Below, piece after piece: positions 8,939 to 54,887 of a DNA stretch of 64,000 nucleotides. Position 1 is the stretch's first letter; each line of letters opens with the position of its first letter. The DNA is from a virus. The notes under the pieces were generated by a model, which made no database searches, was not told the DNA's origin, and saw nothing but the letters and a program-made list of their open reading frames with translations. Location: the IMG/VR virus record IMGVR_UViG_3300045988_174371, positions 1-64,000 of that record. One strand, given 5' to 3'. The position numbers and the translations under genes are program-made.

Positions 8939-10762
8939 CTAAGCGTCAGAATCCTCAGAAGACGCATCCTTACCCTCAGCAGGAGCCTCAACGGTCTTAT
9001 CCTGAGCCTTACGCATCTTCCTCATGAAGAACAGCAGACCACCGATACCAGCCGCCGCAATAGCCGCAAAGACAGCGCCCAGAACGGGGTTACTGCCCTG
9101 CTCATGACCAGTCTTAGCCTCAACAGGCTTAGCAGGCTCGCTCGGCTTCACGCCAGGCTCCGAAGGCTTCTCAACAGCAGGTTCAGACGGCGTTACCGAA
9201 GGAACCGGAGTGGTAGCCTCCTGAGTAGGAGCAGGCGGAACGGACTCGGTGGGAGTGGGCTCCGCCGAAGGAGTTACAACAGGCTCAGACGGAGTGGGCT
9301 CAGGGGTTACGTCGGGCGTAGGGGTGGGCGCGGGAGTCTCTACAGGAGCCGCCACAGGCTTCACATAAACAGAGTAGTCGGTTACGTTTTCCTTAGTGGA
9401 GTGCCAGGAGTAGTAGTTGGCGGAGCCACCACCACCGAAGCCCTGCTTGCCCACATCACCAAAGTTCGCGTCACCGTAGAAGCTCTTGTACGTCTCATCG
9501 CCACAAGTACCACCCTTAGTGTAGGTCTGGATGTAGCTCTCGTATGGCTTAGCGTCATACAGGGTAGCTTCCACACCCTCAGGGAGTACGGGGGCGACAC
9601 GTTCCTGCGCGCCATTAGTGAACAGCTTCAAGAAGTCGGGGGCAATATCCTCAGAAAGCCCAGAGCTCTTGAAGATAATCGGAGAAGCCGCCAGTTGGTC
9701 ACAGGGTGCCACACCAATAACATCCATAGGCTCAATCAGAACCTCAGTGAGCTTGAAGTCAGCGCCAGTAACCTCACCAGGAGTACCGGATGCGGCTACG
9801 TCTTCCACTGAGAAAGTTTTAGTCTCACCAGGAGCAATCTCAACATTGGGGAGGGCAATCTTCTTGCCGTCACGGGTGATACTTAGGTGAATCTTCTGGT
9901 CATCAACACCATTACCCTCGGCGGTGGTGGCGGCAATCTCTGACTTGTTGGTGTAGGTGAAGCTTACCTTACCTGCATCATTTGCAGAAACTTCGGTGGG
10001 GTTCTCGCGAGTGGTGCCCAGCTCACCAATAGTGGTGGAGGCGCTAAAGGTGCCAGCCTGAACGGTCGGCTTGTCAGAGTCGATAGTGATGCGCTGGGTG
10101 ACAGTCTTACCACCCTCAACTTCCACAGAGTAGAGGAAGGTGAGGTTCTGCTTATTGTCATCTGGACGCGAAATGGTGATAGTACCGTCAGCGTTAGCCG
10201 TAATCTTGGAGCCATTGTTGCTACTCAAGCCGGAGCCAAACTGAAGGGTACCACTGCGCGGGGTAGATGCCTCATCGGAAGCGTACAGAGGTAGGTCTAC
10301 GCGAGTAGCATCATTGCCCAGGGTGCCGATACCTACAAGGAGCGTGCCCGGAACTACAGTGTTACCCTTACCAACTAGGTCTGCGACATTGATGGTGTAG
10401 TTCGTGGTGCTGTCACCACTGAACGGCGAAATCTTATCCTTCTTAAGAGTCCAGTTCACATAGTTCTGAACAGTCTCCTTGGGTGCAGATGCGGTAAAGT
10501 CCTTGGCGGTCAGGTTCACGGTGGACTCGGTGCGCGCCTGAGTGGTTGCGGCGGCAGTTGCTTCTGCGGCATGTGCCACGTTGAGCATTGCTACGCCACC
10601 TGCGCCACCACCGAGGGTGAGGGCGGTAACCATGAGTGCGCCTGCTACCTTGCGCTTGGCGTTATGCTTTGCGCTTGCAAAGGTTGCGGGGGTGTTTTCA
10701 GTCTTAGGGGACAAAGTTTTCTCCTGTACTGGTTGCGGGTTGGTTGTTCTGCTGTCCACCAT
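8939..10762 (-). CDS. secreted surface protein with Pro/Thr/Glu-rich stalk and C-terminal membrane anchor
   Basis: 607 aa. Signal-like KRKVAGALMVTALTLGGGAGGVAMLNVAHA; PTPTPDVTPEPTPSEP stalk; EAKTG followed by a hydrophobic helix and RKMRK. Confidence 0.8.
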   Translation of the reverse strand: MVDSRTTNPQPVQEKTLSPKTENTPATFASAKHNAKRKVAGALMVTALTLGGGAGGVAMLNVAHAAEATAAATTQARTESTVNLTAKDFTASAPKETVQNYVNWTLKKDKISPFSGDSTTNYTINVADLVGKGNTVVPGTLLVGIGTLGNDATRVDLPLYASDEASTPRSGTLQFGSGLSSNNGSKITANADGTITISRPDDNKQNLTFLYSVEVEGGKTVTQRITIDSDKPTVQAGTFSASTTIGELGTTRENPTEVSANDAGKVSFTYTNKSEIAATTAEGNGVDDQKIHLSITRDGKKIALPNVEIAPGETKTFSVEDVAASGTPGEVTGADFKLTEVLIEPMDVIGVAPCDQLAASPIIFKSSGLSEDIAPDFLKLFTNGAQERVAPVLPEGVEATLYDAKPYESYIQTYTKGGTCGDETYKSFYGDANFGDVGKQGFGGGGSANYYSWHSTKENVTDYSVYVKPVAAPVETPAPTPTPDVTPEPTPSEPVVTPSAEPTPTESVPPAPTQEATTPVPSVTPSEPAVEKPSEPGVKPSEPAKPVEAKTGHEQGSNPVLGAVFAAIAAAGIGGLLFFMRKMRKAQDKTVEAPAEGKDASSEDSDA

Positions 10763-10882
10763 ATGCTTGGTGGTGGCTTCCAGAGGGGTCAGCGTAGCGC
10801 TCTGCGGTACGTGCCTTTGGCTGGTTGCCGGTCAGCGTGCCCTTTGTGGGAGGCTTTACGTCTCTTGTGTGGGCTTGTGGTT

Positions 10883-10893
10883 ATTGTAGCATG
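10883..10893 (-). promoter_or_regulatory. extended -10 promoter
   Basis: rc reads CATGCTACAAT (TGcTACAAT). Confidence 0.55.
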
Positions 10894-10950
10894 TGGTGCC
10901 GTTGTGGTGCCACATGCTTTTTGTGGGCGCGGCAAAAAGCGTCCTTCAAT

Positions 10951-10959
10951 TGCTAGTAT
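10951..10959 (+). promoter_or_regulatory. candidate plus-strand extended -10 promoter (TGCTAGTAT)
   Basis: Same 9-mer as the tRNA-Leu(TAG) promoter at 54879-54887; faces into the ORF-free region. Confidence 0.4.
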
Positions 10960-10965
10960 ATCGTG

Positions 10966-12027
10966 TTGCTGGTCGTGTGCATCTTGCTTCAGGGGTTGCT
11001 TGAGGGAGATTCCGCTCACATTGAAGGTTCTTTGCAGTGCTGATTGAAGGTTCTAGTTGGCGGTTTTTTGGGCATAAAAAAGAGGGACACCTTCAGCAAT
11101 GGTTCCTACTGGCAGTCCGCGTTGCATGGCAGTCTGCTCAGTATGCACTTGGAACCATCCCGTCACGGTAGCTCATTGCGTAGAGCTGTGTGACGGTGGT
11201 GCTGGTGAGCATACAGGTTCATTCCTAAGGTAGGTAAGATGTGTAATTGTGTACGCCTAGCACTTCAGTGCAATGAAGCCGCTTCATATTTCCCCGCCGA
11301 TATAGCGTTCCTCAAGGGTGCTCTGCCCCTGAGGAGTCAGCGGATGACATTCGAAGACGTAACCATCTTATCTACTTACCGGGTACTCGTTGAAGAACCT
11401 TCATCGTGTTCCCGGCGGTGAACCCAACCAGCTCCTACTGGAAGGTGTTCCCTAACATTCATCGAACCATAATTCCGGGGTGTGAACATGGAAGTGTGTG
11501 TTCCCACGGAGTTACAGTTGTCAATTGATGAATGTCGCTATTCTGCTGTGATGCTCACTGGGTGCTAAGCACCTGATGTGAACATCGTATGTTCAGCTTG
11601 TCCCTTCTACAAAACGGCATAGCAATCATGGAACTAGCCGCCACAGCCTTTATTCCGTACAAAGCGGAGGCTGTGGAGAGTGGAACTTCGGTGAACCAGA
11701 TAAGGTGCGGCAAGGGTTGCCCACTACGGCGCTACTAAAGCAACTCTAACACTTGCCTTAGTATGCCCCTCTCTTATCCGCGTGTACCTACGGGTAGAGG
11801 GGTGCTGTAGCATTGTAACCTTGCGGTGCACCTCAGAGCTTTAAAGAGCCTTACTCCCGGATGCGCCTTTATGCTTTGCTGGGTGCTGACTGCAATCAGT
11901 ACCCAGCTTCACATTCTGGCGAATGAGCGGCAGTGAAACAGGTGAAAGCTGTTTTACTGCCCGGTTTGGGGTTCTAAAGTTCACGTGGGACGGTAGCATC
12001 TCGCCCCGCGCTGACAAAGTATATTCA
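10966..12027. ncRNA. ~1-kb ORF-free, hairpin-dense region (candidate large structured RNA and/or tnpB omega-RNA)
   Basis: Only one ORF of 60 aa or more in six frames. Perfect or near-perfect stems at 11160-11196, 11561-11573, 11579-11595, 11641-11676, 11764-11804, 11879-11906 and 11931-11959. Direct repeat attgaaggttct at 11020 and 11043. Confidence 0.4.
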
Positions 12028-13203
12028 TCAGCGCCAATTCATACGGGACGTTAGCCGCGCAATGCCACGCTTACGGATGTTCATAGCGGCAGTACGGTCA
12101 TCGTTAGACCGGAAGCCACATGCACAACTGTAAAGGTGGAGATGGTGGTTTCTGTTCCGTTTCTCTATCATACCACACTTAGGGCAGGTAGTGCTAGTCG
12201 AAACAGTGGAAACATGGACGAAAATGTGTCCTCGCTTCTGTGATTCCTCTCTCAACGCTCGGCTGAACTTGTCGAAGACGACGGTGGGAAGCTTGCCCAT
12301 GTCGTCGCGGCTGAAGCGTTCGCGGAGGTGAACGGATGCCTGGATGTCCTCCAATGCGAATACAGTGTGAGGCTCTGCGCCGTCAAGGATTGCCTTAACG
12401 GTCTTGTCGATGCCTTCCTGGAGGTGTGCCTGCATTTCGTCTGAGAGTGCCTTGAGGCGCTTGCGGGAGCTTCGAGTGTTCTTAGCCTTGAGGCGTTCAC
12501 GACGTGCGCTGTACTGCTCCATGTAGGTCTGGAGCGGGGTGTTCCATGCGCGGTAGAACTTGCTTTCCTTGCCGTCATAGGAGACTGCGAGGAACCGGGT
12601 TCCCAGGTCGATACCGACTACCTTGTTCGTTACGGTTGCGATGTCGTACTTCAGGAGCCAGCCTACCGCCTTATCGTAGGATAGGGTTGCCTGGTTCATG
12701 TTCTTGGTGTACGGGTAACCTGCGGGGAGGTTCAACCATTCGGCAAGGAACTGTTCGGTGTCATGGGTTCCGTCTGCTAGGTCTGAGCGGTAGAGGCGGA
12801 TTTTGTATGCGCCGTTGCCCAGGCGGTAGAAGTCGTAGTCGCTCCTGTAGCGCACGGGGATTCGGTCGAGGTTATAGGTGCGCGGCTTCTTGATGGACTT
12901 GTTCTGCACGTGGTCTGCTTTGTAGTCCTGGATGACGGTGTAGATGGCACGGTCGCGGATGCCAGGATAGATGCTTTCCAGCTTTGCGGTGTCACCCTTG
13001 ATGCGGGTCATGATTTTCTTCGCGCTGACGGTGTTCAGCTGGAAGGATACCTTGCTCGCAATGTTGCATACGCGCAGGTATGCGTTGTAGTACTCTAGCA
13101 GTCTATCCTGCGCATCCCAGTCGTTCACCTTCAGGTGTACGTATACGGTAAGCCTGTTGGCTTTCACGTTAGGAAGATTAGTCATCTTCGGGAGGTCACT
13201 CAT
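12028..13203 (-). CDS. tnpB: TnpB (RNA-guided RuvC nuclease, IS605 OrfB family)
   Basis: RuvC motifs VGIDLG, FALEDI and NDDRTAAMNI; zinc ribbon CPKCG...CACG. Start at the ATG at 13203 (MSDLPKM) with SD AAGGAAA. Confidence 0.9.
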   Translation of the reverse strand: MSDLPKMTNLPNVKANRLTVYVHLKVNDWDAQDRLLEYYNAYLRVCNIASKVSFQLNTVSAKKIMTRIKGDTAKLESIYPGIRDRAIYTVIQDYKADHVQNKSIKKPRTYNLDRIPVRYRSDYDFYRLGNGAYKIRLYRSDLADGTHDTEQFLAEWLNLPAGYPYTKNMNQATLSYDKAVGWLLKYDIATVTNKVVGIDLGTRFLAVSYDGKESKFYRAWNTPLQTYMEQYSARRERLKAKNTRSSRKRLKALSDEMQAHLQEGIDKTVKAILDGAEPHTVFALEDIQASVHLRERFSRDDMGKLPTVVFDKFSRALREESQKRGHIFVHVSTVSTSTTCPKCGMIEKRNRNHHLHLYSCACGFRSNDDRTAAMNIRKRGIARLTSRMNWR

Positions 13204-13306
13204 GTTGATTTCCTTCTTTAAAGGGGGGTATTGTTGGTTCCCTGCCCTTCCGCTTGGTGGAGGGCTTGGGAGGTGTGCAAGGATTTCCCTGCGACCCAAC
13301 AGTTAT

Positions 13307-13317
13307 ACTGTATCACA
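13307..13317 (-). promoter_or_regulatory. extended -10 promoter upstream of tnpB
   Basis: rc reads TGTGATACAGT. Confidence 0.6.
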
Positions 13318-13437
13318 CATTTCGGTGTATGTGAAACTGGTGTGCTGTGGATGGTGATAACCGCGCCTGACTTGAATACATTCAGTCGATAAGCGGCTAC
13401 CACCACACACGTTATCTACCCTAACACCTTTGCCTTA

Positions 13438-14007
13438 CTAGGCGATGTCTTGGGCTCTCACCCAACGTGCCCGCGCATCTGCAAACATCTCATCCCACTG
13501 TGCACGACTTTTCCTCAACCGCCAAGCAACACTGTTATTGCGCTCCATAAGAAGCTTATCTACAGTGTCAGAGTATGCGGGAATGTACTTCGGCTCGCTA
13601 GAGACCGCCTTCCCATGCTCCCACGTGAAAACAAGCCGCCCAAGAACCCTTCCAGAACTGGAGGTTTCAACCCAGATTACACCTTGCGCATCCTGATAGA
13701 CCTTGCAGTGGCGCTCCTTAAATGGCTCATCATGGTAGTAGGTTGGTGCACCACCCTGCATGATGTATTCACGGAGCCATAGGTTATAAGCGTCCAGAGG
13801 ATTCATGTCGCTCAGCTCAAGCTTCCTAAGCGCCCGCCTAAGGTCTCTATTGTCCATTTCCGACACGGACGTTGCAGAGCGGACAGTTCTAACCATATCT
13901 ATCTTTGTTGTCGGAGTACCGCTGTTGGCAATGGAAGGAATGATAGTGGCGGTTCGCCAGGCGGATACCTGCTTTTCGCGGGGGTTGCGGGTGGGGCTAC
14001 TGGGCAT
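13438..14007 (-). CDS. hypothetical protein, SAWR / AYNLWL family
   Basis: 189 aa; motifs QVSAWRT, AYNLWLREYIMQGG and IPAYSDTVDK; SD GAAAGGAG. Confidence 0.75.
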   Translation of the reverse strand: MPSSPTRNPREKQVSAWRTATIIPSIANSGTPTTKIDMVRTVRSATSVSEMDNRDLRRALRKLELSDMNPLDAYNLWLREYIMQGGAPTYYHDEPFKERHCKVYQDAQGVIWVETSSSGRVLGRLVFTWEHGKAVSSEPKYIPAYSDTVDKLLMERNNSVAWRLRKSRAQWDEMFADARARWVRAQDIA

Positions 14008-14069
14008 ATGCTTAGCTCCTTTCGGCGTAGCATGTTCTTTGGTGGCATGTTAGATGCTTAGTCGTAGTT

Positions 14070-14672
14070 TCAAAATGAGTAGCCGCGCTCATTTAGAAAC
14101 CTTTCCACTGCCCGCCTTTCAAATGGTTCAAGGCTATCTATTCCATAGGTGAGCGCCTGTATTGCGGACTGGTGGGCGTCTAGGTCATTACGAAGCCGCT
14201 CACCATCGGCGCTGTCCTCTTGCATGATGCTCTTGTCGATGGTGTTCGTGTAGGCGGGAATATTGCTCTTGACTGCAAGAGCTCTGGAGCCGTCCCATTT
14301 GAAGATGTAGCCTACCCGCCCGGCACGGTACTCAACGCACACCTCGCCGTCATCCATGACTCTTCTCATGAACTGCTCTTCGGGTAGCTCGCAGTTGTGG
14401 TAGTCGGTCGGGGTTCCGCCTTGCCTGATGTAATCGTGGAGCCACTGGTTGTACAGCTCCTCAGCGCTCATAAGGTGGCGCTTAGCTTTAGGGGAAGCGA
14501 ATACCATGCGAAGGCGCTTCCCCGCATTGGAGACATGCCTCGTGAGTAGTAGCGCTGGCGATTGAGTGGGCGCGGCTGGGTTGCTGGTGGCGGCAAGCCG
14601 ATGCTCAGGCTCGCTATGGTCATGGCTTCGCCAGGCGGACACCTGCCGTGCTACCTTCTTGGGTGAAGTCAT
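14070..14672 (-). CDS. hypothetical protein, SAWR / AYNLWL family
   Basis: 200 aa; motifs QVSAWRS, LYNQWLHDYIRQGG and IPAYTNTIDK; SD AGGAG. Confidence 0.75.
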   Translation of the reverse strand: MTSPKKVARQVSAWRSHDHSEPEHRLAATSNPAAPTQSPALLLTRHVSNAGKRLRMVFASPKAKRHLMSAEELYNQWLHDYIRQGGTPTDYHNCELPEEQFMRRVMDDGEVCVEYRAGRVGYIFKWDGSRALAVKSNIPAYTNTIDKSIMQEDSADGERLRNDLDAHQSAIQALTYGIDSLEPFERRAVERFLNERGYSF

Positions 14673-14728
14673 ATTATTACTCCTGTGGCTCTGTCGGGTG
14701 GTCGGGGGGGGGGTACCCCTACTTCATT

Positions 14729-14739
14729 ACTCTAGCATG
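14729..14739 (-). promoter_or_regulatory. extended -10 promoter (TGCTAGAGT)
   Basis: rc reads CATGCTAGAGT; a G10 run at 14704-14713 lies in the 5' UTR. Confidence 0.5.
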
Positions 14740-14829
14740 TTTTGGTGGGGTATGGGTGTGGCGACTGCGCCAGTTTGTGATGCTGGGTTGCAGTCGCCAC
14801 ATGGGGGTCTTATTGAGGGTATTTCGCAT

Positions 14830-15414
14830 CTAGGCGAGAGTGATAATCACGCGGCGCTTACCCTTCTTAGTCCAGCCGTATAGCTTGTTGTGTGATGTGC
14901 CCTGTAGGAACCTAAAGGCATGTTTTTTAGCGTCGTATTCCTTATTTAGGATGAAGGTCATTGACTGAGCTCCGCACATGCCGTCTGGGAAGTTGAGCTC
15001 GTGAGGACTCTTTACGTAAACGACTGTGGAGGGGAGCCTGCGGTCAGGGAATACGTCTGACCAGTCCCTCATTTCTGCGTGAGTTAAGTAGTTGCGGGTG
15101 CACCCCTTGGATAGCTCACGTTCGATGTCCTCTTGGATACAGTGCATACGCCTAGTATAAGCTTCCCTCTGGGATTCTAAATCCTTCTTCACGCTGTCGG
15201 CGCGTAGTTCTTGAAGGTGTGGGCATGGTTCCACATCGATAGTGGCTTTGCCTATGCCGGGGTATGGCGGCTGGGGCTTCTGTGGGGTTTCCTGGGAAGT
15301 GGAAGTGTTGCGATTGTTGCTGGGTGTGGCGGGCTGGTGGGAGCTGGTGGTATCGATAGGTGGGGTGGTGTAGGCGGTTCGCCAACCGGCTACGTACTTG
15401 TTCTTGCTGGGCAT
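14830..15414 (-). CDS. hypothetical protein, SHNxLYGW family
   Basis: 194 aa; motifs YVAGWRT and SHNKLYGWTKKGKRRV; SD AAGGAGA. Confidence 0.75.
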   Translation of the reverse strand: MPSKNKYVAGWRTAYTTPPIDTTSSHQPATPSNNRNTSTSQETPQKPQPPYPGIGKATIDVEPCPHLQELRADSVKKDLESQREAYTRRMHCIQEDIERELSKGCTRNYLTHAEMRDWSDVFPDRRLPSTVVYVKSPHELNFPDGMCGAQSMTFILNKEYDAKKHAFRFLQGTSHNKLYGWTKKGKRRVIITLA

Positions 15415-15549: not shown

Positions 15550-16740
15550 TTATCGGTGCTTGATGGTTACGGTGATTCCGCGAGCGGCTAGACGCTTTAG
15601 GATGTCCTCTGAGAGGGAGCGGAGGCGTGCCGGGTACTTCTCGATGAGTTCACTGAACGTCCTGTCCATCAGATGCATGTTCACGAGCGCTTCCTGGACG
15701 TTGGTCATCTTGATTTCCTTCTGGTTGAAGAAGTCAATTCGTACCTTCAGCTTTTCTTCCTCGGTGGTGGCGGCATCTAGGTTACGCTTGAGGTTTGCGT
15801 AGATTGCCTGTCCTTCGGATAGGAGCTCTTCGATGCATTCCACTACGGGGGTGAGCTTATCCTCTGCGCCGTTTTCCGTGAGGATTGCCTGACGCGCCAG
15901 CATATCGTCGATGGTTCCATTGGCGAATGCCTGGATGATTCGGCGGACACCCTTGCGGGATGACTTGCGGATGTACGGGTGGAGGAAGTCGTTGCTGTTC
16001 ATGAACCAGTCTTCGGTCTTGAACTTGATGAGTCGCCCGTACTCATTGACGACGACGAACCCTTCGATACCCTTTGCTTCCTGCTGGATGGTTTCAACCT
16101 CAGGAATGGTCATGTGGTAGATGTTAGGTGCGGGAAGATTGAGTTCCTGTGCTACTTCAAGCATGATGAGCGGCGACAGGTCGCCGGTTGCCTTCTCAGA
16201 TACACCGATGAGGGTAAGCTTCTCTTCGTCGTACATGACGTTGATAAGGTTGTTCGGGGAGGTGTATTCGAAGATGAGGCACTTTTCCGGGTTCTGCTGG
16301 AGCCACTGCTTCACCTGAGGGGTTTCACCCAGGAGGCGGTAGACAGGCTCGGTGTAGTCGGGGTGCTCAATGACGCTGGAGGTCGTGAAGAGGTATTCAC
16401 CGTTGTAGAGTCCGACGATGATGCAGGTTCCGTCTAGCTTCTCGTAGAAGGTCACCTTTTCGTTGCGGGTGAAGGAGCCCATGTGGGTGAACTCTTCCTT
16501 GAACTTTGCGTCCACGGTGGTCTTAGCGTCGTACTGCTTCCAGTTGAAGAACTTGTTGAAGCCTCGGAGGATTACTTCGCCCTGCTCGTTGAGGACAAGT
16601 CCTCGTGCGGCGCGCAGGTAGGGGTCTTCGAAGTCGATAACCTCAGGGCGGTACTTAACGCAGGTGAGGTTGCGCTCCTTGTTCGTGTTGAACTTTACAA
16701 GGTGTGAGTAATTCTCCTTGTAATGCTGGAGTAGGTTCAT
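15550..16740 (-). CDS. ATP-dependent RNA ligase (Rnl1-like)
   Basis: 396 aa; nucleotidyl-transferase motif I EKLDGT; RAARGLVL...FNKFFN upstream segment; SD GAAGGGAA. Confidence 0.7.
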   Translation of the reverse strand: MNLLQHYKENYSHLVKFNTNKERNLTCVKYRPEVIDFEDPYLRAARGLVLNEQGEVILRGFNKFFNWKQYDAKTTVDAKFKEEFTHMGSFTRNEKVTFYEKLDGTCIIVGLYNGEYLFTTSSVIEHPDYTEPVYRLLGETPQVKQWLQQNPEKCLIFEYTSPNNLINVMYDEEKLTLIGVSEKATGDLSPLIMLEVAQELNLPAPNIYHMTIPEVETIQQEAKGIEGFVVVNEYGRLIKFKTEDWFMNSNDFLHPYIRKSSRKGVRRIIQAFANGTIDDMLARQAILTENGAEDKLTPVVECIEELLSEGQAIYANLKRNLDAATTEEEKLKVRIDFFNQKEIKMTNVQEALVNMHLMDRTFSELIEKYPARLRSLSEDILKRLAARGITVTIKHR

Positions 16741-16807
16741 TGGGGTATTCCCTTCGTGATTGGTGGGCTTGTGGCTTCTTGTAGCTACGTTTCAATTCGA
16801 TAACTAG

Positions 16808-16818
16808 AGTGTATCACA
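16808..16818 (-). promoter_or_regulatory. extended -10 promoter
   Basis: rc reads TGTGATACACT followed by ctagttatcg. Confidence 0.65.
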
Positions 16819-16865
16819 TATTTATGATTGTGGGCAAGGTGTTATTGGGGTAGGTGGGCAAATAG

Positions 16866-19153: not shown

Positions 19154-19185
19154 GATTGGTCTCCTAAAAACGATTAACTAAATAT

Positions 19186-19196
19186 AGTGTATCACA
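19186..19196 (-). promoter_or_regulatory. extended -10 promoter
   Basis: rc reads TGTGATACACT. Confidence 0.65.
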
Positions 19197-19213
19197 TATT
19201 TTAGGGGGTAGAA

Positions 19214-20414: not shown

Positions 20415-21974
20415 CTACTTCTGGCGCTTCGCACGCTGAGAAGTCGATACCCAGGTGTCCACGGTATCGCTATCGCCCTTATACTGGCGACGCTCATAGC
20501 TCCACTTATGCCTGAAGGTGCGTCCACCAGAGTAGCGCTTAAACGAAACCTTCTCAGCAGTGAAGATGGCGACACTGAGGTGACCGCCCGCGTGCTCAAC
20601 CTTAGACTCTAGCGGAATAAGGTTACGGTACTGTGCGGGGTCGCCGTAGTTGCCTCGATGACCACACACTGCGATAAGCTCGCTATTGGGGTGTCCACCT
20701 TCGTCCTTATGCATCTGCGTTGCCTTTGCGTAGAGCGCGTTGAGCGGTTCAGCCCAACCCTCATAGGTGCCACACCCATTAAGGATGTCTACACTCTCAC
20801 TATAGCCGGTCTCCCAATGCTTGAGCGGGTAACGGTAGATGCTTCCAACCTGCTTCGCGGGTCGCAAATCGGTAACCTGCTTCGCATATGCCGAATCAGC
20901 ATAGAGCTTCGGGTGAACACCTGCATGGCTGAGGTACAGGTACTTGCTGGAGACTCCGCCGCATTCTTCTACGCTGTCGAGGCGTAGCTCTGCGGCAGGC
21001 AGGGCAGTAGATAGCGCGTCCTTGATGACCTTCTCGCTGTAGCCGTGTTCCTTGAGCGCCTTGACAGTGATAAGGCTATCCTTGACGGTGTTCACTCCTG
21101 CTAGGACGTTGAGAATCTGCGACTCGTGGTTGCCGTTGATGAGCTTTACATTGTCACTCCCCTCAATAAGGTGCGGGAAGGTGATGTCTGCCACCTTTGC
21201 AGGCGTGTTACCTCGGTCGAACAGGTCTCCAATGAACACCCAGAGGGTCTTCTTGTCGTTAAGTCCCTTGCCGGGCGCGAGGTCTTCGAGTGCGGCTTCC
21301 AGAGTGTTACCCATGCCCTGAATGTCACCCAGGATGCATACGCGGTCATAGGTGTTAGCCAGGTCGATAGCGATGTGCTGGTGGATGGAGTCTCGGAAGT
21401 TCACGCGGCTCGCCATGTGTTCCATGAGGTCTGCGGGCTTAATGTACCCCTGGACGCGGGGGTATTCTCGGAGCATAGTGCGCCAGTTCTTACGCAGTTC
21501 AATATTCTGCTTGTGCATCTTGGAGACAGTGTGCTCAGGAACCTTCTTGTAGCCGGTTCGTCGCGCATTGCGCTCCTGAATTTCCTCTAGAGTCTGGTCA
21601 CCCTGAATGTCGATAAGCCACACCTTGTAGGAGTACTGCTCTGCCAAATCCAGGAACCCGCGCATATTCTCCAGTAGGGTGTTCGTATTGTCTACGAAGA
21701 TGGTTTCACCAGTTCGCATGAGAACGTCAGTGTCAATATAGGAGGTCTTGATTGCCGCCTTCTCCTGCGCGCCACTGAGAGGCTGGACGTAGGACTCCTC
21801 GAAGCCATCTTCGGTGGGGGTGTAGGTGAGCACTGCCGGGGACTCGTGGCGGTAGCGTGCTCGGTAGGCATCCCAAGAGATGACACGTCCCAGGTGATGC
21901 TTCTCGATAGTTTCCTTGATGTAGGTGCTCTTGCCGGAGCCGGGTGCGCCGGTGAGCAGGTACATGTGTCGCAT
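20415..21974 (-). CDS. polynucleotide kinase / metallophosphatase (Pnkp-like RNA end-healing enzyme)
   Basis: 519 aa; P-loop GAPGSGKST; calcineurin-type motifs GDIQG, GDLFDRG and NGNHE. Confidence 0.75.
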   Translation of the reverse strand: MRHMYLLTGAPGSGKSTYIKETIEKHHLGRVISWDAYRARYRHESPAVLTYTPTEDGFEESYVQPLSGAQEKAAIKTSYIDTDVLMRTGETIFVDNTNTLLENMRGFLDLAEQYSYKVWLIDIQGDQTLEEIQERNARRTGYKKVPEHTVSKMHKQNIELRKNWRTMLREYPRVQGYIKPADLMEHMASRVNFRDSIHQHIAIDLANTYDRVCILGDIQGMGNTLEAALEDLAPGKGLNDKKTLWVFIGDLFDRGNTPAKVADITFPHLIEGSDNVKLINGNHESQILNVLAGVNTVKDSLITVKALKEHGYSEKVIKDALSTALPAAELRLDSVEECGGVSSKYLYLSHAGVHPKLYADSAYAKQVTDLRPAKQVGSIYRYPLKHWETGYSESVDILNGCGTYEGWAEPLNALYAKATQMHKDEGGHPNSELIAVCGHRGNYGDPAQYRNLIPLESKVEHAGGHLSVAIFTAEKVSFKRYSGGRTFRHKWSYERRQYKGDSDTVDTWVSTSQRAKRQK

Positions 21975-22011
21975 GTTTTAGCAACCTTTCATAAACTGAT
22001 TAACTAGAGTT

Positions 22012-22022
22012 AGTGTATCACA
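22012..22022 (-). promoter_or_regulatory. extended -10 promoter
   Basis: rc reads TGTGATACACT. Confidence 0.65.
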
Positions 22023-22069
22023 TATTTATTGGTATATGCAATTTACTGCCGGTTGCCCCAAAGTAGACC

Positions 22070-36147: not shown

Positions 36148-37446
36148 CTAGTCTACCTCGGTGGCGGTAGAGGGCTTGAAGCGTTCCGGGAAGTATAGGC
36201 AGAAGTCGGTAATCTTACCGTCAATCCCCTCATCCTCATCCTCATCACCTTCATTGCCTTCAATGAGGCATAGAGGTGACTCAGAATCATCAAGCGTATA
36301 CTTCACACTCGCATTAACTGGGAGCTTATACGTACCCATCAGCTTATAATCATCTTCTTCAAGAAGTACATACTTCTTACCCTCGTGAGACTTAATGTAG
36401 TCATCAAGAACAGCATCCTCGCTATCGAGACCATTGAAAGGCAAGACAGCGAACTCCAACGAAGAGTAATCCCACACCTTATCGTAAGGAGCGCACTCCT
36501 CATCAGCCGGAATACTAGGGTTGAAGAAAATCATTGCGAGAACCAAAGCACCGGAAGCGTACATGAGCCACACCGGAGCTGACTGCGTGAAGAAGAACAG
36601 AGAGTACAATGCAACTAGTGCAATAGCCAGAAGAGCGGCGGAAGCAGTCATCACCAGCGAAGAGAAGGGGCGATGCAGAAGGCTCCAGCCGGGGAACTCC
36701 AAATCCCCCATCATCTTATCGTGATTGATACGCAGAATAGGCTCATCAATCAGACGGCTAACCTCATTCTCTCCAAAGTTCTCAACAGCCGCCGCATAAC
36801 GCTCAGCACGAGACTTCTCATAGACCGAACGAATCAAACCCTTAACAGGCTTCTTCTCAGACATCGGAACATGAATCTCATAATGCAGATAACGCCTAGC
36901 AGACTCCCACTCACCAAAGACAACCTTCAGCCTCGGAGCAGAACCCTCAATCGCATCATAAACAGTGCGGACGCTATCGACCCTATCCAGGGAACCCTTC
37001 GAGAAAACCGGAGCCACCGGCAAGACCTTAGCCTCACCATCATCCGAAACAGTGACCCAAAGCTTACCGTCAGCAACCTTGAAGAACCGCTCCACATACG
37101 GAGCACCCTCAGCGACACCCTCAACAGGTAGCACTTCATACTCGACAGCCTCATCATCACTGTAATCCTTCACAGCAAGAGGCTCACCGCTGGTACGCTT
37201 CCACAATGAAAAGCCAATGAGTGAACAAGTGAACGTAATCACCGAAGCGGGCAAAAGAAAAATTCCACTAACGAAAATGAAAAAGCCCGTAACCGGCGAA
37301 TAGCCGCCCGCAGTCGTAAGGTTAAACCCAGACAATGCGACACCGCCCAAGGACAGAAGTAGCATAGCCGCCGCGAAAGCGAACAGGTTACGCCGCGAAA
37401 GCTTAGTCAAAGCCCTAGGCTTAATCAATTTCTCGTAAAGAGACAA
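36148..37446 (-). CDS. membrane protein (two hydrophobic clusters)
   Basis: 432 aa; TTG start; preceded by a ~320-nt leader that contains RNA element C. Confidence 0.7.
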   Translation of the reverse strand: MSLYEKLIKPRALTKLSRRNLFAFAAAMLLLSLGGVALSGFNLTTAGGYSPVTGFFIFVSGIFLLPASVITFTCSLIGFSLWKRTSGEPLAVKDYSDDEAVEYEVLPVEGVAEGAPYVERFFKVADGKLWVTVSDDGEAKVLPVAPVFSKGSLDRVDSVRTVYDAIEGSAPRLKVVFGEWESARRYLHYEIHVPMSEKKPVKGLIRSVYEKSRAERYAAAVENFGENEVSRLIDEPILRINHDKMMGDLEFPGWSLLHRPFSSLVMTASAALLAIALVALYSLFFFTQSAPVWLMYASGALVLAMIFFNPSIPADEECAPYDKVWDYSSLEFAVLPFNGLDSEDAVLDDYIKSHEGKKYVLLEEDDYKLMGTYKLPVNASVKYTLDDSESPLCLIEGNEGDEDEDEGIDGKITDFCLYFPERFKPSTATEVD

Positions 37447-40775: not shown

Positions 40776-41846
40776 CTAGCGCTTACGCTTCTTCTTCTTA
40801 GTGAGGAAGGCATTGGAAACTACCTTGAAGTGGGCGCGGTTTCCCAGCTCCCTGCGGGGCTTGCCGTCCTTGAAGTACCAGACGATACCCTCTACGGTTT
40901 CACCCGGCGCAACGGCAGAGGTGATGGTGTCAGGCTGAGCAACGGCATTGCCTGCGTCCCAGGTAACGTTGTCGAGGATGGGAACCCAGAGCCCTGCGTC
41001 CTTGAATCGACGTTCAACATCTGCGTTAGATGCGTGGAAAGCGCGGAAGTCTGCAACGTCGCCGGTGGCGAACTTAAACTTCGAGCTAATCTTGTTGCAG
41101 AAGAGTTCACCCTGTACCCATTCACCAGGCTTGAGGCTGTCGAACAGTTCTGCGTAGCGGGAGTAGCCGTCGCGGTAGTACTTCCAAGCGGAGCTGTTGA
41201 GTGCGTCCTGCTTGATGGCGTAGTTGCGGTTAGCGATGCGGATAGCGCCAGTTTCAACATCTCGCCAGACGGTCATGGAGGTTCCGTCAATCTTCTCGGT
41301 AGCGTACACATCATCAGCAGAGATGTTTTCGAAGAAGGAGGCGGGAATGTTCTGGACGCGCTCAGCATCAGTAGTGCCAATGAACCCTGGGAAGCTTTCC
41401 AGACCCTCTTCGCCAACCGCGAGGATAGCATCTTCAATGTGCTTGGTGACAATGCCGTCAAAGTAAGCATCAACCTCATCCTGGGAAGCCTCCGCAGATA
41501 GACCTTCAAAGCTTTCCAGGGGAAGCAGGAGACCTTGGGAGAGGCTTTCACGGAAGTGCTGGCTACGGAGCACAACACCTGAGATTGCCTTGCCGTTAAT
41601 GATGCGGGTTGCCTTCTTGCCCTTAATGGGGGCAAATGCAGGGAAGTCGCTACTCAGCAGGGAGTCAATCTCAAAGTAGACCGCCTTGTCGCCTTCCTGC
41701 ATGGTCTTGGGTGCTACCACCCACCATAGGGTGTTCTTAGGGTTTGCCATGTGGATGAAGTTTGCGGGGTCGTTGCATTCCTTGGTCTTGTCGATGGTGA
41801 CAATGCGGGCGAGGTGGCGGATGCCGTCTACAGCAGTCGATGCCAT
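40776..41846 (-). CDS. ATP-dependent RNA ligase (DRB0094/Rnl5-like, N-terminal OB-like module)
   Basis: 356 aa; motif I YATEKIDGTSMTVW; N-terminus ...EGDKAVYFEIDSLL; SD GAAAGGAAA. Confidence 0.75.
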   Translation of the reverse strand: MASTAVDGIRHLARIVTIDKTKECNDPANFIHMANPKNTLWWVVAPKTMQEGDKAVYFEIDSLLSSDFPAFAPIKGKKATRIINGKAISGVVLRSQHFRESLSQGLLLPLESFEGLSAEASQDEVDAYFDGIVTKHIEDAILAVGEEGLESFPGFIGTTDAERVQNIPASFFENISADDVYATEKIDGTSMTVWRDVETGAIRIANRNYAIKQDALNSSAWKYYRDGYSRYAELFDSLKPGEWVQGELFCNKISSKFKFATGDVADFRAFHASNADVERRFKDAGLWVPILDNVTWDAGNAVAQPDTITSAVAPGETVEGIVWYFKDGKPRRELGNRAHFKVVSNAFLTKKKKRKR

Positions 41847-44737: not shown

Positions 44738-45046
44738 ATGTACAAGTTCAACTTCTCCATCCCCGAAGCCATGTACGAAAAGTACGGCTGGGATTTTGAC
44801 ACTGAATGGGACCTCAACATCACCGGCTTCCGCGTCTACAATAAGACCCAGCGCATTACCATGCAGGTTATCGTTGAAGCAACTGATGAGGTTTTCAATG
44901 TTGAACTGGAAGGTATGGATTACGTAAAGTTCCCTCTGACTAAGGAGCTTATCGAACACGCACGCAAGAGCAAGAAGCCTCTGTCTTGTGTGGAGGTCGT
45001 ATGCTTCAATAAGCACTACGTCAAGTTCACTGCAAAGAACCTTTAA
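44738..45046 (+). CDS. hypothetical protein
   Basis: Start at the ATG at 44738 (MYKFNF) after SD GAAAGG, downstream of the promoter. Confidence 0.75.
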   Translation: MYKFNFSIPEAMYEKYGWDFDTEWDLNITGFRVYNKTQRITMQVIVEATDEVFNVELEGMDYVKFPLTKELIEHARKSKKPLSCVEVVCFNKHYVKFTAKNL

Positions 45047-45047
45047 T

Positions 45048-49997: not shown

Positions 49998-50046
49998 GAT
50001 TACTCCCTTTAGGGTGATGACTTAATGATTGACTGTAACTACTATT

Positions 50047-50057
50047 AGTGTATCACA
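50047..50057 (-). promoter_or_regulatory. extended -10 promoter
   Basis: rc reads TGTGATACACT. Confidence 0.65.
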
Positions 50058-50097
50058 TATTTTAGGGTATGTGCAATATATTGGATGTGATTACGAC

Positions 50098-54878: not shown

Positions 54879-54887
54879 TGCTAGTAT
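54879..54887 (+). promoter_or_regulatory. extended -10 promoter (TGCTAGTAT) of the tRNA-Leu(TAG) unit
   Basis: About 128 nt upstream of the tRNA 5' end. Confidence 0.55.

What the first reader, a model, noticed from the sequence alone, without database searches (positions are those of the whole stretch)
10951..12027. ~1-kb ORF-free, hairpin-dense region between tnpB and the surface-protein promoter: candidate large structured RNA
In a window where intergenic gaps are typically 20-150 nt, this stretch of about 1,060 nt has only one ORF of 60 aa in any frame. It is packed with perfect or near-perfect stems: 11160-11196, 11561-11573, 11579-11595, 11641-11676 (9 bp), 11764-11804, 11879-11906 (11 bp) and 11931-11959 (11 bp). 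A TnpB omega-RNA normally needs only ~150-250 nt at the 3' end of the gene, so most of the region is unexplained. The strand is ambiguous. Three stems (11764-11804, 11879-11906, 11931-11959) contain G.U pairs valid only on the plus strand, which is antisense to tnpB. A TGCTAGTAT -10, identical to the tRNA-Leu promoter, faces inward at 10951. Against that, the stem at 11310-11333 and a weak U-run terminator near 11075 favour the minus strand. A tandem 12-nt repeat, attgaaggttct, sits at 11020 and 11043. Large ornate RNAs are known to occur near tRNAs in phages, and tRNA-Thr lies 2.4 kb away.
Basis: seen in the sequence. Interest (0 to 1): 0.75.

Follow-up and report, generated by a model that had tools for sequence, protein, structure and literature searches.

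The report
Kilobase RNA partner of phage TnpB
The ORF-free kilobase next to tnpB encodes, on the tnpB strand, a conserved and highly folded RNA of about 950 nt that is inherited with one jumbo-phage clade of TnpB nucleases, several times longer than any described TnpB guide RNA.

Summary
Window 11076-12034 has no ORF above 60 aa, shows no codon periodicity, and folds far better than shuffles (z = -11 and -8.6 on the two strands).

It is not an independent RNA. It lies downstream of tnpB on the minus strand. Every RNA-bearing relative of this small TnpB clade found in about 30 metagenomic jumbo-phage loci carries the same ordered motifs and helices directly after the tnpB stop codon. In each, these end in a stem plus a U-run.

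Relatives carry a 415-525 nt form. This lineage reaches about 950 nt through three expansions. One is a 340-nt domain inserted in the loop of the terminal stem. Another holds a 121-nt cassette with two alleles.

Covariation supports the fold within two subgroups and across groups.

The TnpB keeps its RuvC D-E-D triad and a Cas12f/TnpB fold. It has its own phage promoter and no TnpA, and the locus is single-copy and syntenic.

No Rfam family matches, including the omega-RNA, GOLLD, ROOL and intron models. No 3' guide could be found.

Best reading: a giant, terminator-capped, omega-RNA-like partner of a domesticated phage TnpB. Expression and guide function are untested.

The parts
13307..13322 (-). 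Promoter-like box upstream of tnpB (AAATGTGTGATACAGT, extended -10 type). It is one copy of a motif repeated at least 10 times in front of minus-strand genes in the window.
   Evidence: Repeat family D1; upstream sequences compared. Function as a promoter is inferred.
12028..13203 (-). tnpB, 391 aa from M33 of the 423-aa TTG ORF. It is a TnpB/Cas12f-like nuclease with an intact RuvC D-E-D triad and a zinc ribbon.
   Evidence: Pfam PF07282 and a weak PF01385 hit; homologues start at this Met; D231, E317 and D400/D401 are invariant; AF2 model pLDDT 77, with full-length Foldseek hits to Cas12f, Fanzor2 and TnpB at E 1e-14 to 1e-10.
11076..12034 (-). The whole structured RNA module, about 959 nt, from hairpin H1 (which contains the tnpB stop codon) to the U-run. 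The true 5' end may lie further inside tnpB.
   Evidence: Collinear conserved motifs and helices in all RNA-bearing relatives; fold z-scores; RNAalifold of 11 close relatives.
11987..12034 (-). Hairpins H1 (12008-12034) and H2 (11987-12007) at the stop codon. This is the best-conserved 5' part across all groups.
   Evidence: 79-87% identity across groups that are otherwise about 40% identical. H2 changes U-A to C-G between groups and has a G.U on this strand.
11691..11984 (-). Long-range helix P3 (11979-11984 GUGAAC with 11691-11696 GUUCAC) enclosing variable domain II. Domain II is about 280 nt here and about 95 nt in group B.
   Evidence: 5 of 6 P3 positions show two or more Watson-Crick pair types across groups: GUGAAC/GUUCAC, CAGGCU/AGCCUG, CAGGY/RCCUG.
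11708..11828 (-). 121-nt cassette inside domain II, closed by the conserved stem GAGGUG/CACCUU. It has two unrelated alleles (121 and 112 nt) among phages that are otherwise 93-98% identical.
   Evidence: Allele 1 is in the window, L018, L022, L023 and L025. Allele 2 is in L001, L019, L020, L021, L024 and L032. The alleles are shuffled relative to flanking polymorphisms.
11596..11686 (-). Helix P4, formed by invariant motifs M1 GUUCCAC (11680-11686) and M2 GGGACAAGC (11596-11604), enclosing two hairpins (including 11641-11676).
   Evidence: Helix 9. The extension is CUC/GAG in group B and CCC/GGG in L014, and a U.G is invariant. A covariance model of this module built from group B alone finds L014 (E = 1.5e-10) and the A2 loci (about 1e-5). 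It finds the window at 11591-11699(-) only weakly (14.8 bits, E = 0.32).
11533..11548 (-). Motif M3 (CAGCAGAAUAGCGACA), near-invariant across the family and predicted unpaired.
   Evidence: No second copy or complement elsewhere in the window.
11082..11455 (-). Terminal stem: 5' arm UUAGGGAACACCUUCCAG (11438-11455) with 3' arm CUGAAGGUGUCCCUC (11082-11096). It encloses a 340-nt 3' domain (11097-11437).
   Evidence: The same stem is present, with compensatory differences, in A2 (AGAGACACCCCAACG/CGUUGYGGGUGUCUCU, about 370-nt insert) and in L014 (AGAGGCACUCC/GGGGUGCCUCU, 17-nt loop).
11076..11081 (-). U-run directly after the terminal stem; the presumed 3' end and intrinsic terminator.
   Evidence: A T-run sits at the same place in all groups. 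In group B it follows a 21-bp hairpin with 9 compensatory pairs. The next gene's promoter follows.
10883..11054 (-). Not part of the RNA: the intergenic control region of the 607-aa gene. It holds two AGAACCUUCAAU repeats (11020-11031, 11043-11054), the palindromic GATATACT/TGCTAGTAT box (about 10951-10962), a hairpin (10888-10918) and the TGCTACAAT extended -10 (10883-10891).

Best explanation
The region encodes, on the minus strand, the cognate non-coding RNA of a jumbo-phage-specific TnpB/Cas12f-like nuclease. It is an omega-RNA-like scaffold grown to about 950 nt.

Shown:
- tnpB and the RNA are adjacent and co-inherited across lineages whose RNAs are only about 40% identical.
- The RNA has a conserved core: H1, H2, P3, P4 (M1:M2), M3 and a terminal stem plus U-run. 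Covariation supports this core.
- The long form here differs from the 415-525 nt forms in relatives by expansions inside existing helices: domain II with a swappable 121-nt cassette, the hairpin between M3 and M4, and a 340-nt domain in the loop of the terminal stem.

Inferred:
- A phage promoter at about 13310 drives a single tnpB-RNA transcript that ends at the U-run at 11076-11081.
- TnpB, whose catalytic triad is intact, binds the RNA and perhaps trims it out of its own mRNA, as canonical TnpBs do.
- The resulting RNP is a nuclease serving the phage, not an active transposon.

The guide segment is not identified. The RNA is capped by a terminator rather than running into flanking DNA, so targeting, if it exists, must use a fixed internal or pre-terminator segment.
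For: Family and linkage. Only 12 protein clusters match at E <= 1e-10, several on contigs of 260-356 kb. The 30 metagenomic loci include contigs of up to about 372 kb. Motifs M1, M2 and M3 occur in the same order after the stop codon in every member except L008/L009, with a T-run at about 413 nt or about 940-953 nt. Short collinear BLAST matches run across the whole kilobase.

Non-coding. There is no 3-periodicity.

Structure.
- Fold z-scores are -11 and -8.6 here, -6.9 in L006 and -5.7 in L003.
- In group B, 97% of cells are paired and 23 pairs change on both sides; 0 of 500 shuffles reach this, and slid controls give 0-5.
- In group A2, 98.1% are paired, with 18 double-change pairs against 9.2 +/- 1.8 in shuffles (0 of 500) and 0-2 in slid controls.
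- Compensatory changes occur across groups in P3, H2, P4 and the terminal stem.

Strand.
- RNAalifold energies, tnpB strand versus opposite: -338.5 vs -325.3, -306.3 vs -288.4, -142.5 vs -120.3.
- L006 MFE is -168.6 vs -142.7.
- G.U versus A.C columns in shared helices: 46 vs 28.
- Terminators, followed by the next promoter, are on this strand.
- A promoter copy sits before tnpB, and terminators lie upstream of tnpB in groups A2 and B.

Protein. D-E-D and the zinc-ribbon cysteines are invariant. The fold is TnpB/Cas12f over the full length.
Against: - There are no expression data, so transcript ends and strand are inferred.
- In the window itself the plus strand folds slightly better (-383 vs -374.5), and within the closest subgroup G.U evidence is balanced.
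- No Rfam omega-RNA model matches, although Rfam's IS605-orfB-I detects another element in L008.
- No candidate guide was found. There is no variable 16-20-nt 3' tail, and neither M3 nor the cassettes match elsewhere in the window or in related loci.
- The module model built from group B scores the window only 14.8 bits.
- In group A the 'terminator' stem closes a 340-nt loop, which is atypical for an efficient intrinsic terminator.
- One ortholog (L008/L009) keeps tnpB, with an altered C-terminus, but has a tRNA array in place of the RNA. The pairing is therefore not absolute.
Confidence: 0.72

Rival explanations
1. An independent large structured RNA transcribed from the plus strand, antisense to tnpB, from the TGCTAGTAT box at 10951. 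This would be analogous to large ornate phage RNAs such as GOLLD or ROOL, or would act as an antisense regulator of tnpB.
For: - The plus strand of the window folds slightly better: -383.4, z = -11.
- TGCTAGTAT resembles the box before tRNA-Leu at 54879 and is invariant in the 11 closest relatives.
- Two stems have A.C mismatches on the minus strand in this sequence that are G.U on the plus strand.
Against: - The box lies beyond the conserved U-run and is absent as a plus-strand box in A2 and B relatives. In L010 the conserved reading is TGATATACT on the tnpB strand.
- All three subgroups have lower consensus energy on the tnpB strand.
- Group B has unmistakable tnpB-strand terminators at the end of the conserved region.
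- The U.G in P4 is invariant.
- There is no Rfam match to GOLLD or ROOL.
- The RNA never occurs apart from this tnpB clade in the loci recovered.
Confidence: 0.08
2. Two or more separate elements lie side by side. A conventional omega-RNA-like core occupies 11438-12034, and an unrelated RNA or mobile insert (the 340-nt 3' domain, 11097-11437, and perhaps the cassette) landed in the terminator loop and has its own function or none.
For: - The 3' domains of subgroups A1 and A2 share no detectable sequence similarity, although both are about 340-370 nt and sit at the same site.
- L014 has only a 17-nt loop at that site.
- The cassette exists as two unrelated alleles exchanged as a unit.
Against: - The 3' domain is as conserved as the core within each subgroup and has compensatory changes of its own: helices 29, 30, 32, 35, 40, 42 and 44.
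- It is enclosed by the conserved terminal stem, so it is transcribed as part of the same RNA.
- No copy of it occurs elsewhere in the window, and it gives no Rfam hit.
Confidence: 0.12
3. The region is non-functional or acts at the DNA level. It could be a decayed pseudogene, or transposon-end DNA whose hairpins serve a TnpA-type transposase as single-stranded DNA rather than an RNA.
For: - IS200/IS605 ends carry subterminal DNA hairpins (general knowledge).
- The region is adjacent to tnpB.
- Stems as such are strand-symmetric.
Against: - No reading frame is conserved and there is no codon periodicity.
- Conservation with compensatory changes holds across lineages that are about 40% identical.
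- There is no TnpA: the neighbours have no Pfam or PHROG transposase hit.
- The locus is single-copy and sits in a syntenic position with its own promoter and terminator.
- About 950 nt is far more than any IS end.
- The G.U versus A.C asymmetry and the strand difference in energy are properties of RNA, not of duplex or ssDNA ends.
Confidence: 0.03

Closest known systems
TnpB omega-RNA / reRNA of IS200/IS605 elements (e.g. ISDra2; Rfam IS605-orfB-I)
   Same: It is encoded directly at the 3' end of tnpB on the same strand. It is a clade-specific structured scaffold. The partner protein has an intact RuvC triad and a TnpB fold.
   Different: - It is about 950 nt here and 415-525 nt in relatives. 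Described mature guide RNAs are about 113 nt, a 97-nt scaffold plus a 16-nt guide (PMC10705468).
- It gives no Rfam match.
- It ends in a stem plus U-run instead of running into flanking DNA that supplies the guide.
- The locus has no TnpA, no recognisable transposon ends and a single syntenic copy.
Guide RNAs of domesticated TnpB relatives in prophages (TldR; PMC10705468)
   Same: A TnpB-family gene and its downstream RNA are fixed components of a phage genome rather than an active insertion sequence, and the gene sits next to a surface-structure gene.
   Different: TldR proteins have lost the catalytic triad, and their RNA is about 113 nt with a 16-nt guide that has an identifiable target. 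Here the triad is invariant, the RNA is about 8 times longer and no guide or target was found.
Cas12f sgRNA (tracrRNA plus crRNA)
   Same: Cas12f structures are the best structural matches of the protein (E 6.6e-15 to 1e-11). Cas12f is a miniature nuclease that relies on a comparatively large RNA.
   Different: There is no CRISPR array or repeat in the window. The RNA is several-fold larger than a Cas12f guide. Sequence identity of the structural matches is only 11-17%.
Large ornate phage and bacterial RNAs (GOLLD, ROOL, OLE)
   Same: The size class is similar (0.5-1 kb), the RNA has a many-helix structure, and it is encoded in a phage genome that also carries tRNAs.
   Different: No covariance-model match, even at E <= 10. 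This RNA is strictly linked to one protein gene, which is not a feature of those families as I recall it (not tested here).
IStrons (group I intron plus TnpB plus omega-RNA; PMC13521648, PMC10690162)
   Same: A long structured RNA is physically joined to tnpB.
   Different: As recalled from those papers (not read in full), the ribozyme in IStrons lies 5' of the genes and the element interrupts a host gene. Here the structure is 3' of tnpB, no gene is interrupted, and no group I or II intron model matches.

Membership tests
TnpB omega-RNA (OMEGA guide RNA) | Encoded at or overlapping the 3' end of tnpB, on the same strand | tested here: met
   The conserved structure starts at the stop codon in all RNA-bearing loci. 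The strand is inferred from terminators, energies and G.U asymmetry. No expression data.
TnpB omega-RNA (OMEGA guide RNA) | Scaffold conserved and co-varying with its TnpB clade | tested here: met
TnpB omega-RNA (OMEGA guide RNA) | A 3'-terminal guide of about 16-20 nt taken from DNA flanking the transposon right end | tested here: not met
   The RNA ends with a conserved stem plus U-run, followed by the next gene's promoter. There is no variable tail, and no match of candidate segments elsewhere.
TnpB omega-RNA (OMEGA guide RNA) | Match to described omega-RNA covariance models | tested here: not met
   No Rfam hit on this RNA at E <= 10 in the window, nor at E <= 1 in L003, L006 and L014. IS605-orfB-I does score 197 bits on a different element in L008.
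TnpB omega-RNA (OMEGA guide RNA) | Bound by TnpB and directs DNA cleavage next to a TAM | not testable with these tools
   Needs RIP-seq and cleavage assays.
IS200/IS605 or IS607 insertion sequence | TnpA (Y1 or serine recombinase), defined left and right ends, multiple or mobile copies | tested here: not met
   Neighbouring proteins give no transposase hit. The locus is single-copy. It keeps the same genomic neighbourhood across phages, with its own promoter and flanking terminators.
TnpB / Cas12f-like RNA-guided nuclease (the protein) | RuvC D-E-D triad, zinc-ribbon TNB domain, and a WED-REC-RuvC fold | tested here: met
   D231, E317, D400/401 and the CxxC...CxC cysteines are invariant. PF07282 matches. 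Full-length Foldseek matches to Cas12f, TnpB and Fanzor2.
TldR (nuclease-dead TnpB repressor) | Loss of the RuvC catalytic residues | tested here: not met
   The triad is invariant in all 11 aligned family members.
GOLLD / ROOL / other Rfam large RNAs; group I and II introns | Match to the family covariance model | tested here: not met
   At gathering thresholds the window gives only three tRNA hits. At E <= 10, 10600-12400 gives only noise.

The most novel reading that the evidence does not exclude
This could be a new class of RNA-dominated TnpB ribonucleoprotein in jumbo phages. The kilobase RNA would not be a flank-reading guide but a self-contained, terminator-capped RNA, with its specificity or effector function in internal, exchangeable modules. 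Candidates are the two-allele 121-nt cassette at 11708-11828 and the lineage-specific 340-nt 3' domain. That would be a way of programming or using a TnpB that has not been described.
Probability: 0.12. Interest if true: 0.9.

Novelty: new variant of a known kind. Interest (0 to 1): 0.62.

Why it matters
TnpB is the compact ancestor of Cas12 and is valued as a genome editor. Its RNAs are thought of as scaffolds of roughly 100-250 nt that read their guide from the transposon flank.

Here a phage lineage has kept an apparently active TnpB as a fixed gene with its own promoter, and its RNA has grown to about 1 kb by insertions into conserved helices. That would be the largest RNA partner known for this protein family. 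By nucleotide and residue counts, the RNA would weigh several times as much as the 391-aa protein.

The family offers a natural series (415, 525 and 950 nt) for asking what extra RNA domains do in RNA-guided nucleases. It would also show how guide RNAs change when a TnpB is domesticated by a virus. The missing guide is a concrete, testable puzzle.

Tried and rejected
- **Rfam.** Searched at gathering thresholds and at permissive E-values on the window and on relatives. Only tRNAs and noise were found. GOLLD, ROOL, HEARO, intron, ribozyme and omega-RNA families are rejected.
- **GenBank phages.** A DNA search with the region found nothing. A protein search found only about 30%-identical transposases.
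- **Second copy in the window.** None. The other 432-aa TTG ORF at 36148-37446 is unrelated to TnpB.
- **Exact-pattern scans.** IMG/VR gave only the known relative. GTDB genomes gave 3 hits, and the module model finds nothing in them, so they are taken as chance.
- **Pseudogene idea.** Rejected by the periodicity test.
- **Pairing of M2 with the tnpB coding end.** RNAalifold predicted it in the closest subgroup, but the partner sequence is absent in the other groups. M2 pairs with M1 instead.
- **Guide search.** M3, both cassette alleles and the post-stem sequences have no meaningful matches in the window or in loci carrying the other allele. There is no CRISPR-like array.
- **P0007 contig look-up.** The look-up failed. 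The contig came in later as L037.
- **mafft-qinsi.** It is not installed.
- **Own shuffle script.** It timed out, so z-scores come from strand folding.
- **Fixed-window extraction of H1.** It mis-registered subgroup A2, so no H1 covariation is claimed across groups.
Full report
**1. The observation**

Two minus-strand genes flank the region. One is a 607-aa ORF starting at 10762. The other is a 423-aa ORF ending at 12028 that carries the Cas12f1-like TNB domain and a weak OrfB_IS605 match.

No ORF longer than 60 aa lies between them. The stretch 11080-12030 folds at -383.4 kcal/mol on the plus strand (shuffles -313 +/- 6, z = -11.0) and at -374.5 on the minus strand (z = -8.6).

**2. Where the window comes from**

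The window is from a jumbo phage.
- An IMG/VR contig of 307 kb is 87-98% identical over this area.
- A 267.6-kb metagenomic contig encodes an identical TnpB.
- The window carries three tRNAs, an Rnl1-type RNA ligase, a kinase-phosphatase (Pnkp-like) protein and a second RNA ligase.

Rfam finds only the tRNAs at gathering thresholds, and only noise at E <= 10 across 10600-12400. GenBank phages hold no similar DNA. The region is single-copy in the window.

**3. The region travels with a small TnpB clade**

Among 5.8 billion proteins, only 12 clusters match this TnpB at E <= 1e-10. Several sit on contigs of 260-356 kb. I recovered their loci and 30 more from metagenomes.

The loci fall into four groups:
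- A1 is the window type (95-100% TnpB identity).
- A2 has 55-59% TnpB identity.
- B has 44-46%, with a few partly matching loci at 38-53%.
- L014/L015 is a separate lineage (TnpB P0011, 45% identical).

Every member except L008/L009 has three motifs downstream of the stop codon, in the same order. They are M1 GTTCC[AT]C, M2 GGGACAAGC and M3 AGAATAG. They are followed by a T-run at about 413 nt in group B and at 937-953 nt in groups A1 and A2. In L014 the T-run is at 522 nt.

Between A1 and A2 the RNA regions are only about 40% identical. Even so, short collinear BLAST matches run from the first 50 nt to the T-run. More distant TnpBs (33-37% identity) lack the motifs. An exact-pattern scan of one genome per prokaryotic species gave three hits, which the module model does not recognise.

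**4. It is non-coding**

Variable sites in tnpB pile up at codon position 3. The counts are 5/7/83, 28/22/165 and 88/73/252 in the three groups (p from 8e-28 to 2e-40). In the downstream region the counts are flat: 26/26/31, 62/63/77 and 59/56/51 (p = 0.35-0.74). No reading frame is shared between groups.

**5. Architecture, read on the tnpB strand**

- **H1 and H2.** H1 (12008-12034, containing the stop codon) and H2 (11987-12007) are the best-conserved 5' part.
- **P3.** This long-range helix pairs 11979-11984 with 11691-11696 and encloses a variable domain II.
- **P4.** M1 (11680-11686) pairs with M2 (11596-11604) and encloses two hairpins.
- **M3.** It lies at 11533-11548 and is predicted unpaired.
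- **Hairpin.** It spans 11456-11532.
- **Terminal stem.** Motif M4, UUAGGGAACACC (from 11455), is the 5' arm. The 3' arm (11082-11096) is followed directly by UUUUUU (11076-11081).

Group B has the same core in about 415 nt, with a separate, textbook terminator. L014 has the terminal stem with a 17-nt loop. A1 and A2 have 340-370 nt inside that loop.

The kilobase is therefore one RNA module whose extra length comes from insertions into existing helices. These are domain II (about 95 nt in B, about 280 nt here), the hairpin between M3 and M4, and the terminal-stem loop. The core is already about 415 nt in this clade, and the rest is expansion.

**6. Covariation**

| Group | Cells paired | Pairs changed on both sides | Shuffle control | Slid controls |
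|---|---|---|---|---|
| B (10 sequences, 64-95% identical) | 97.0% | 23 | 0 of 500 reach this | 0-5 |
| A2 (9 sequences) | 98.1% | 18 | 9.2 +/- 1.8; 0 of 500 reach this | 0-2 |

In A2, several of the changed pairs lie inside the 3' domain. Both structures were derived from the same alignments, which flatters the percentage paired. The double-change counts and the slid controls are the more meaningful figures.

Across groups:
- P3 is GUGAAC/GUUCAC in A1, CAGGCU/AGCCUG in A2 and CAGGY/RCCUG in B and L014. Five of six positions have two or more Watson-Crick pair types.
- H2 changes U-A to C-G.
- The P4 extension is CUC/GAG in B and CCC/GGG in L014.
- The base of the terminal stem differs by compensatory changes among A1, A2 and L014.

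A covariance model of the M1-M2 module built from group B alone finds L014 (E = 1.5e-10) and all A2 loci (1e-5 to 2e-6). It finds A1, including the window at 11591-11699 on the minus strand, only weakly (13-16 bits, E = 0.1-0.8). On that test alone the window would not be called. The motif order and the helices carry the argument.

**7. Strand**

The closest subgroup cannot decide the strand by itself (A1 rows), and the window's own MFE slightly favours the plus strand. The family as a whole favours the tnpB strand:
- Consensus energies are lower on the tnpB strand in A1, A2 and B: -338.5 vs -325.3, -306.3 vs -288.4 and -142.5 vs -120.3.
- L006 folds at -168.6 (z = -6.9) against -142.7 (z = -3.8).
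- In helices predicted on both strands, columns with a Watson-Crick-to-G.U change outnumber Watson-Crick-to-A.C by 46 to 28.
- P4 has an invariant U.G.
- Group B terminators, and the stem plus U-run of group A, are on this strand and are followed by the next gene's extended -10 box.
- tnpB is preceded by a copy of a promoter-like motif repeated at least 10 times before minus-strand genes (13307-13322). In A2 and B an upstream terminator precedes it.

Promoter, tnpB, RNA and terminator thus look like one transcription unit.

The TGCTAGTAT box at 10951 lies outside the RNA and is palindromic with GATATACT. In L010 the conserved reading is on the tnpB strand. I cannot exclude an antisense promoter in A1.

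**8. The protein**

The true start is probably M33 (13203), as in the homologues. D231, E317, D400/D401 and the zinc-ribbon cysteines are invariant. An AlphaFold model (pLDDT 77) matches Cas12f, Fanzor2 and TnpB structures over its full length, at E from 7e-15 to 1e-8. By sequence only the RuvC half resembles solved structures.

No TnpA is nearby. The locus stays in the same general neighbourhood of these phage genomes while adjacent genes vary. It behaves as a fixed phage gene, not as an active insertion sequence.

**9. The cassette**

Among A1 phages that are 93-98% identical in the flanks, 11708-11828 exists as two unalignable alleles of 121 and 112 nt. Both are closed by the same GAGGUG/CACCUU stem. 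The alleles are shuffled relative to nearby polymorphisms. For example, L019 has window-like flanks with allele 2. So the cassette is exchanged as a unit. Neither allele matches anything in genomes carrying the other allele.

**10. What is missing**

A canonical omega-RNA reads its guide from the DNA beyond the transposon end. Here the RNA is capped by a stem and a U-run, and I found no variable 16-20-nt tail. I also found no target for M3, M4 or the cassettes, and no repeat array.

One ortholog (L008/L009) keeps tnpB with a changed C-terminus but has an array of about 25 tRNA genes where the RNA should be.

Membership in the omega-RNA family is therefore only partial. Position, linkage and scaffold character are met. 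The guide arrangement, the size, the known covariance models and the transposon context are not.

**11. Verdict**

But the RNA belongs to TnpB, lies on the minus strand and spans about 11076-12034. The most likely mechanism is an omega-RNA-like partner that forms an RNP with a catalytically competent, domesticated phage TnpB. This is inferred, not shown.

I found no description of such an RNA in the searched literature. Described mature TnpB-family guide RNAs are about 113 nt (PMC10705468). I rate it a new variant of a known kind, with moderately high interest.

Noticed in passing
window 9185-10584 (inside the 607-aa gene 8939-10762, minus strand): The gene next to the RNA is hypervariable. 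It is 51-78% identical to the 307-kb relative, while the flanks are 93-99% identical. The protein has an N-terminal signal/anchor and a Pro/Thr-rich stalk. Its C-terminus (..AKTG.., a hydrophobic stretch, then RKMRK) resembles a sortase sorting signal, which hints at a Gram-positive host.
   Followed up: partly
window, 10 or more sites, e.g. 13288-13322, 16789-16823, 19167-19201, 21993-22027, 50028-50062: A repeated motif of about 20-35 nt reads AAATATGTGATACACTAT on the minus strand and lies in front of minus-strand genes. It is probably a phage promoter class of the extended -10 type. One copy precedes tnpB.
   Followed up: partly
L008 6150-11149 (= L009): An ortholog of this TnpB (44% identical, with a divergent C-terminus) is followed by an array of about 25 tRNA genes instead of the RNA. 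The tRNA genes are separated by repeated promoter-like boxes. A classical IS605-orfB-I RNA (197 bits) sits at 10465-10688, so a second, ordinary TnpB-type element is present there.
   Followed up: partly
window 15550-16740, 20415-21974, 40776-41846: An RNA-repair gene set: a T4 Rnl1-like RNA ligase three genes upstream of tnpB (also next to tnpB in the A2 loci), a kinase-phosphatase (Pnkp-like) protein and a second RNA ligase. Whether RNA ligation bears on the large RNA (for example circularisation, as reported for archaeal omega-RNAs, PMC12558985) was not examined.
   Followed up: no
window 11020-11039 and 45028-45047: A 20-nt sequence that includes the second AGAACCTTCAAT repeat recurs with one mismatch on the opposite strand at 45028-45047, next to a terminator-like hairpin. 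GAACCTTCAA also occurs upstream of the homologous gene in L010. It may be a regulator binding site.
   Followed up: no
window 10888-10918: A perfect 14-bp hairpin followed by TTTTT on the plus strand overlaps the spacer and -35 region of the minus-strand TGCTACAAT promoter of the 607-aa gene. It is invariant in 11 relatives. Its role is unknown (plus-strand terminator, or promoter-occluding structure).
   Followed up: no
window 13438-15414: The three genes upstream of tnpB (189, 200 and 194 aa) share a repeated 27-nt segment (13948, 14622, 15373). They look like tandem paralogues and have no Pfam or PHROG match.
   Followed up: no
L006 10712-11155 and L014 10055-11155; L014 3333-4118: Group-B phages carry further TnpB-family genes within 5 kb of this locus. 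One is a 521-aa protein with HTH_OrfB_IS605, OrfB_IS605 and TNB domains. In L014 there is also a 261-aa TNB-domain ORF on the opposite strand.
   Followed up: no
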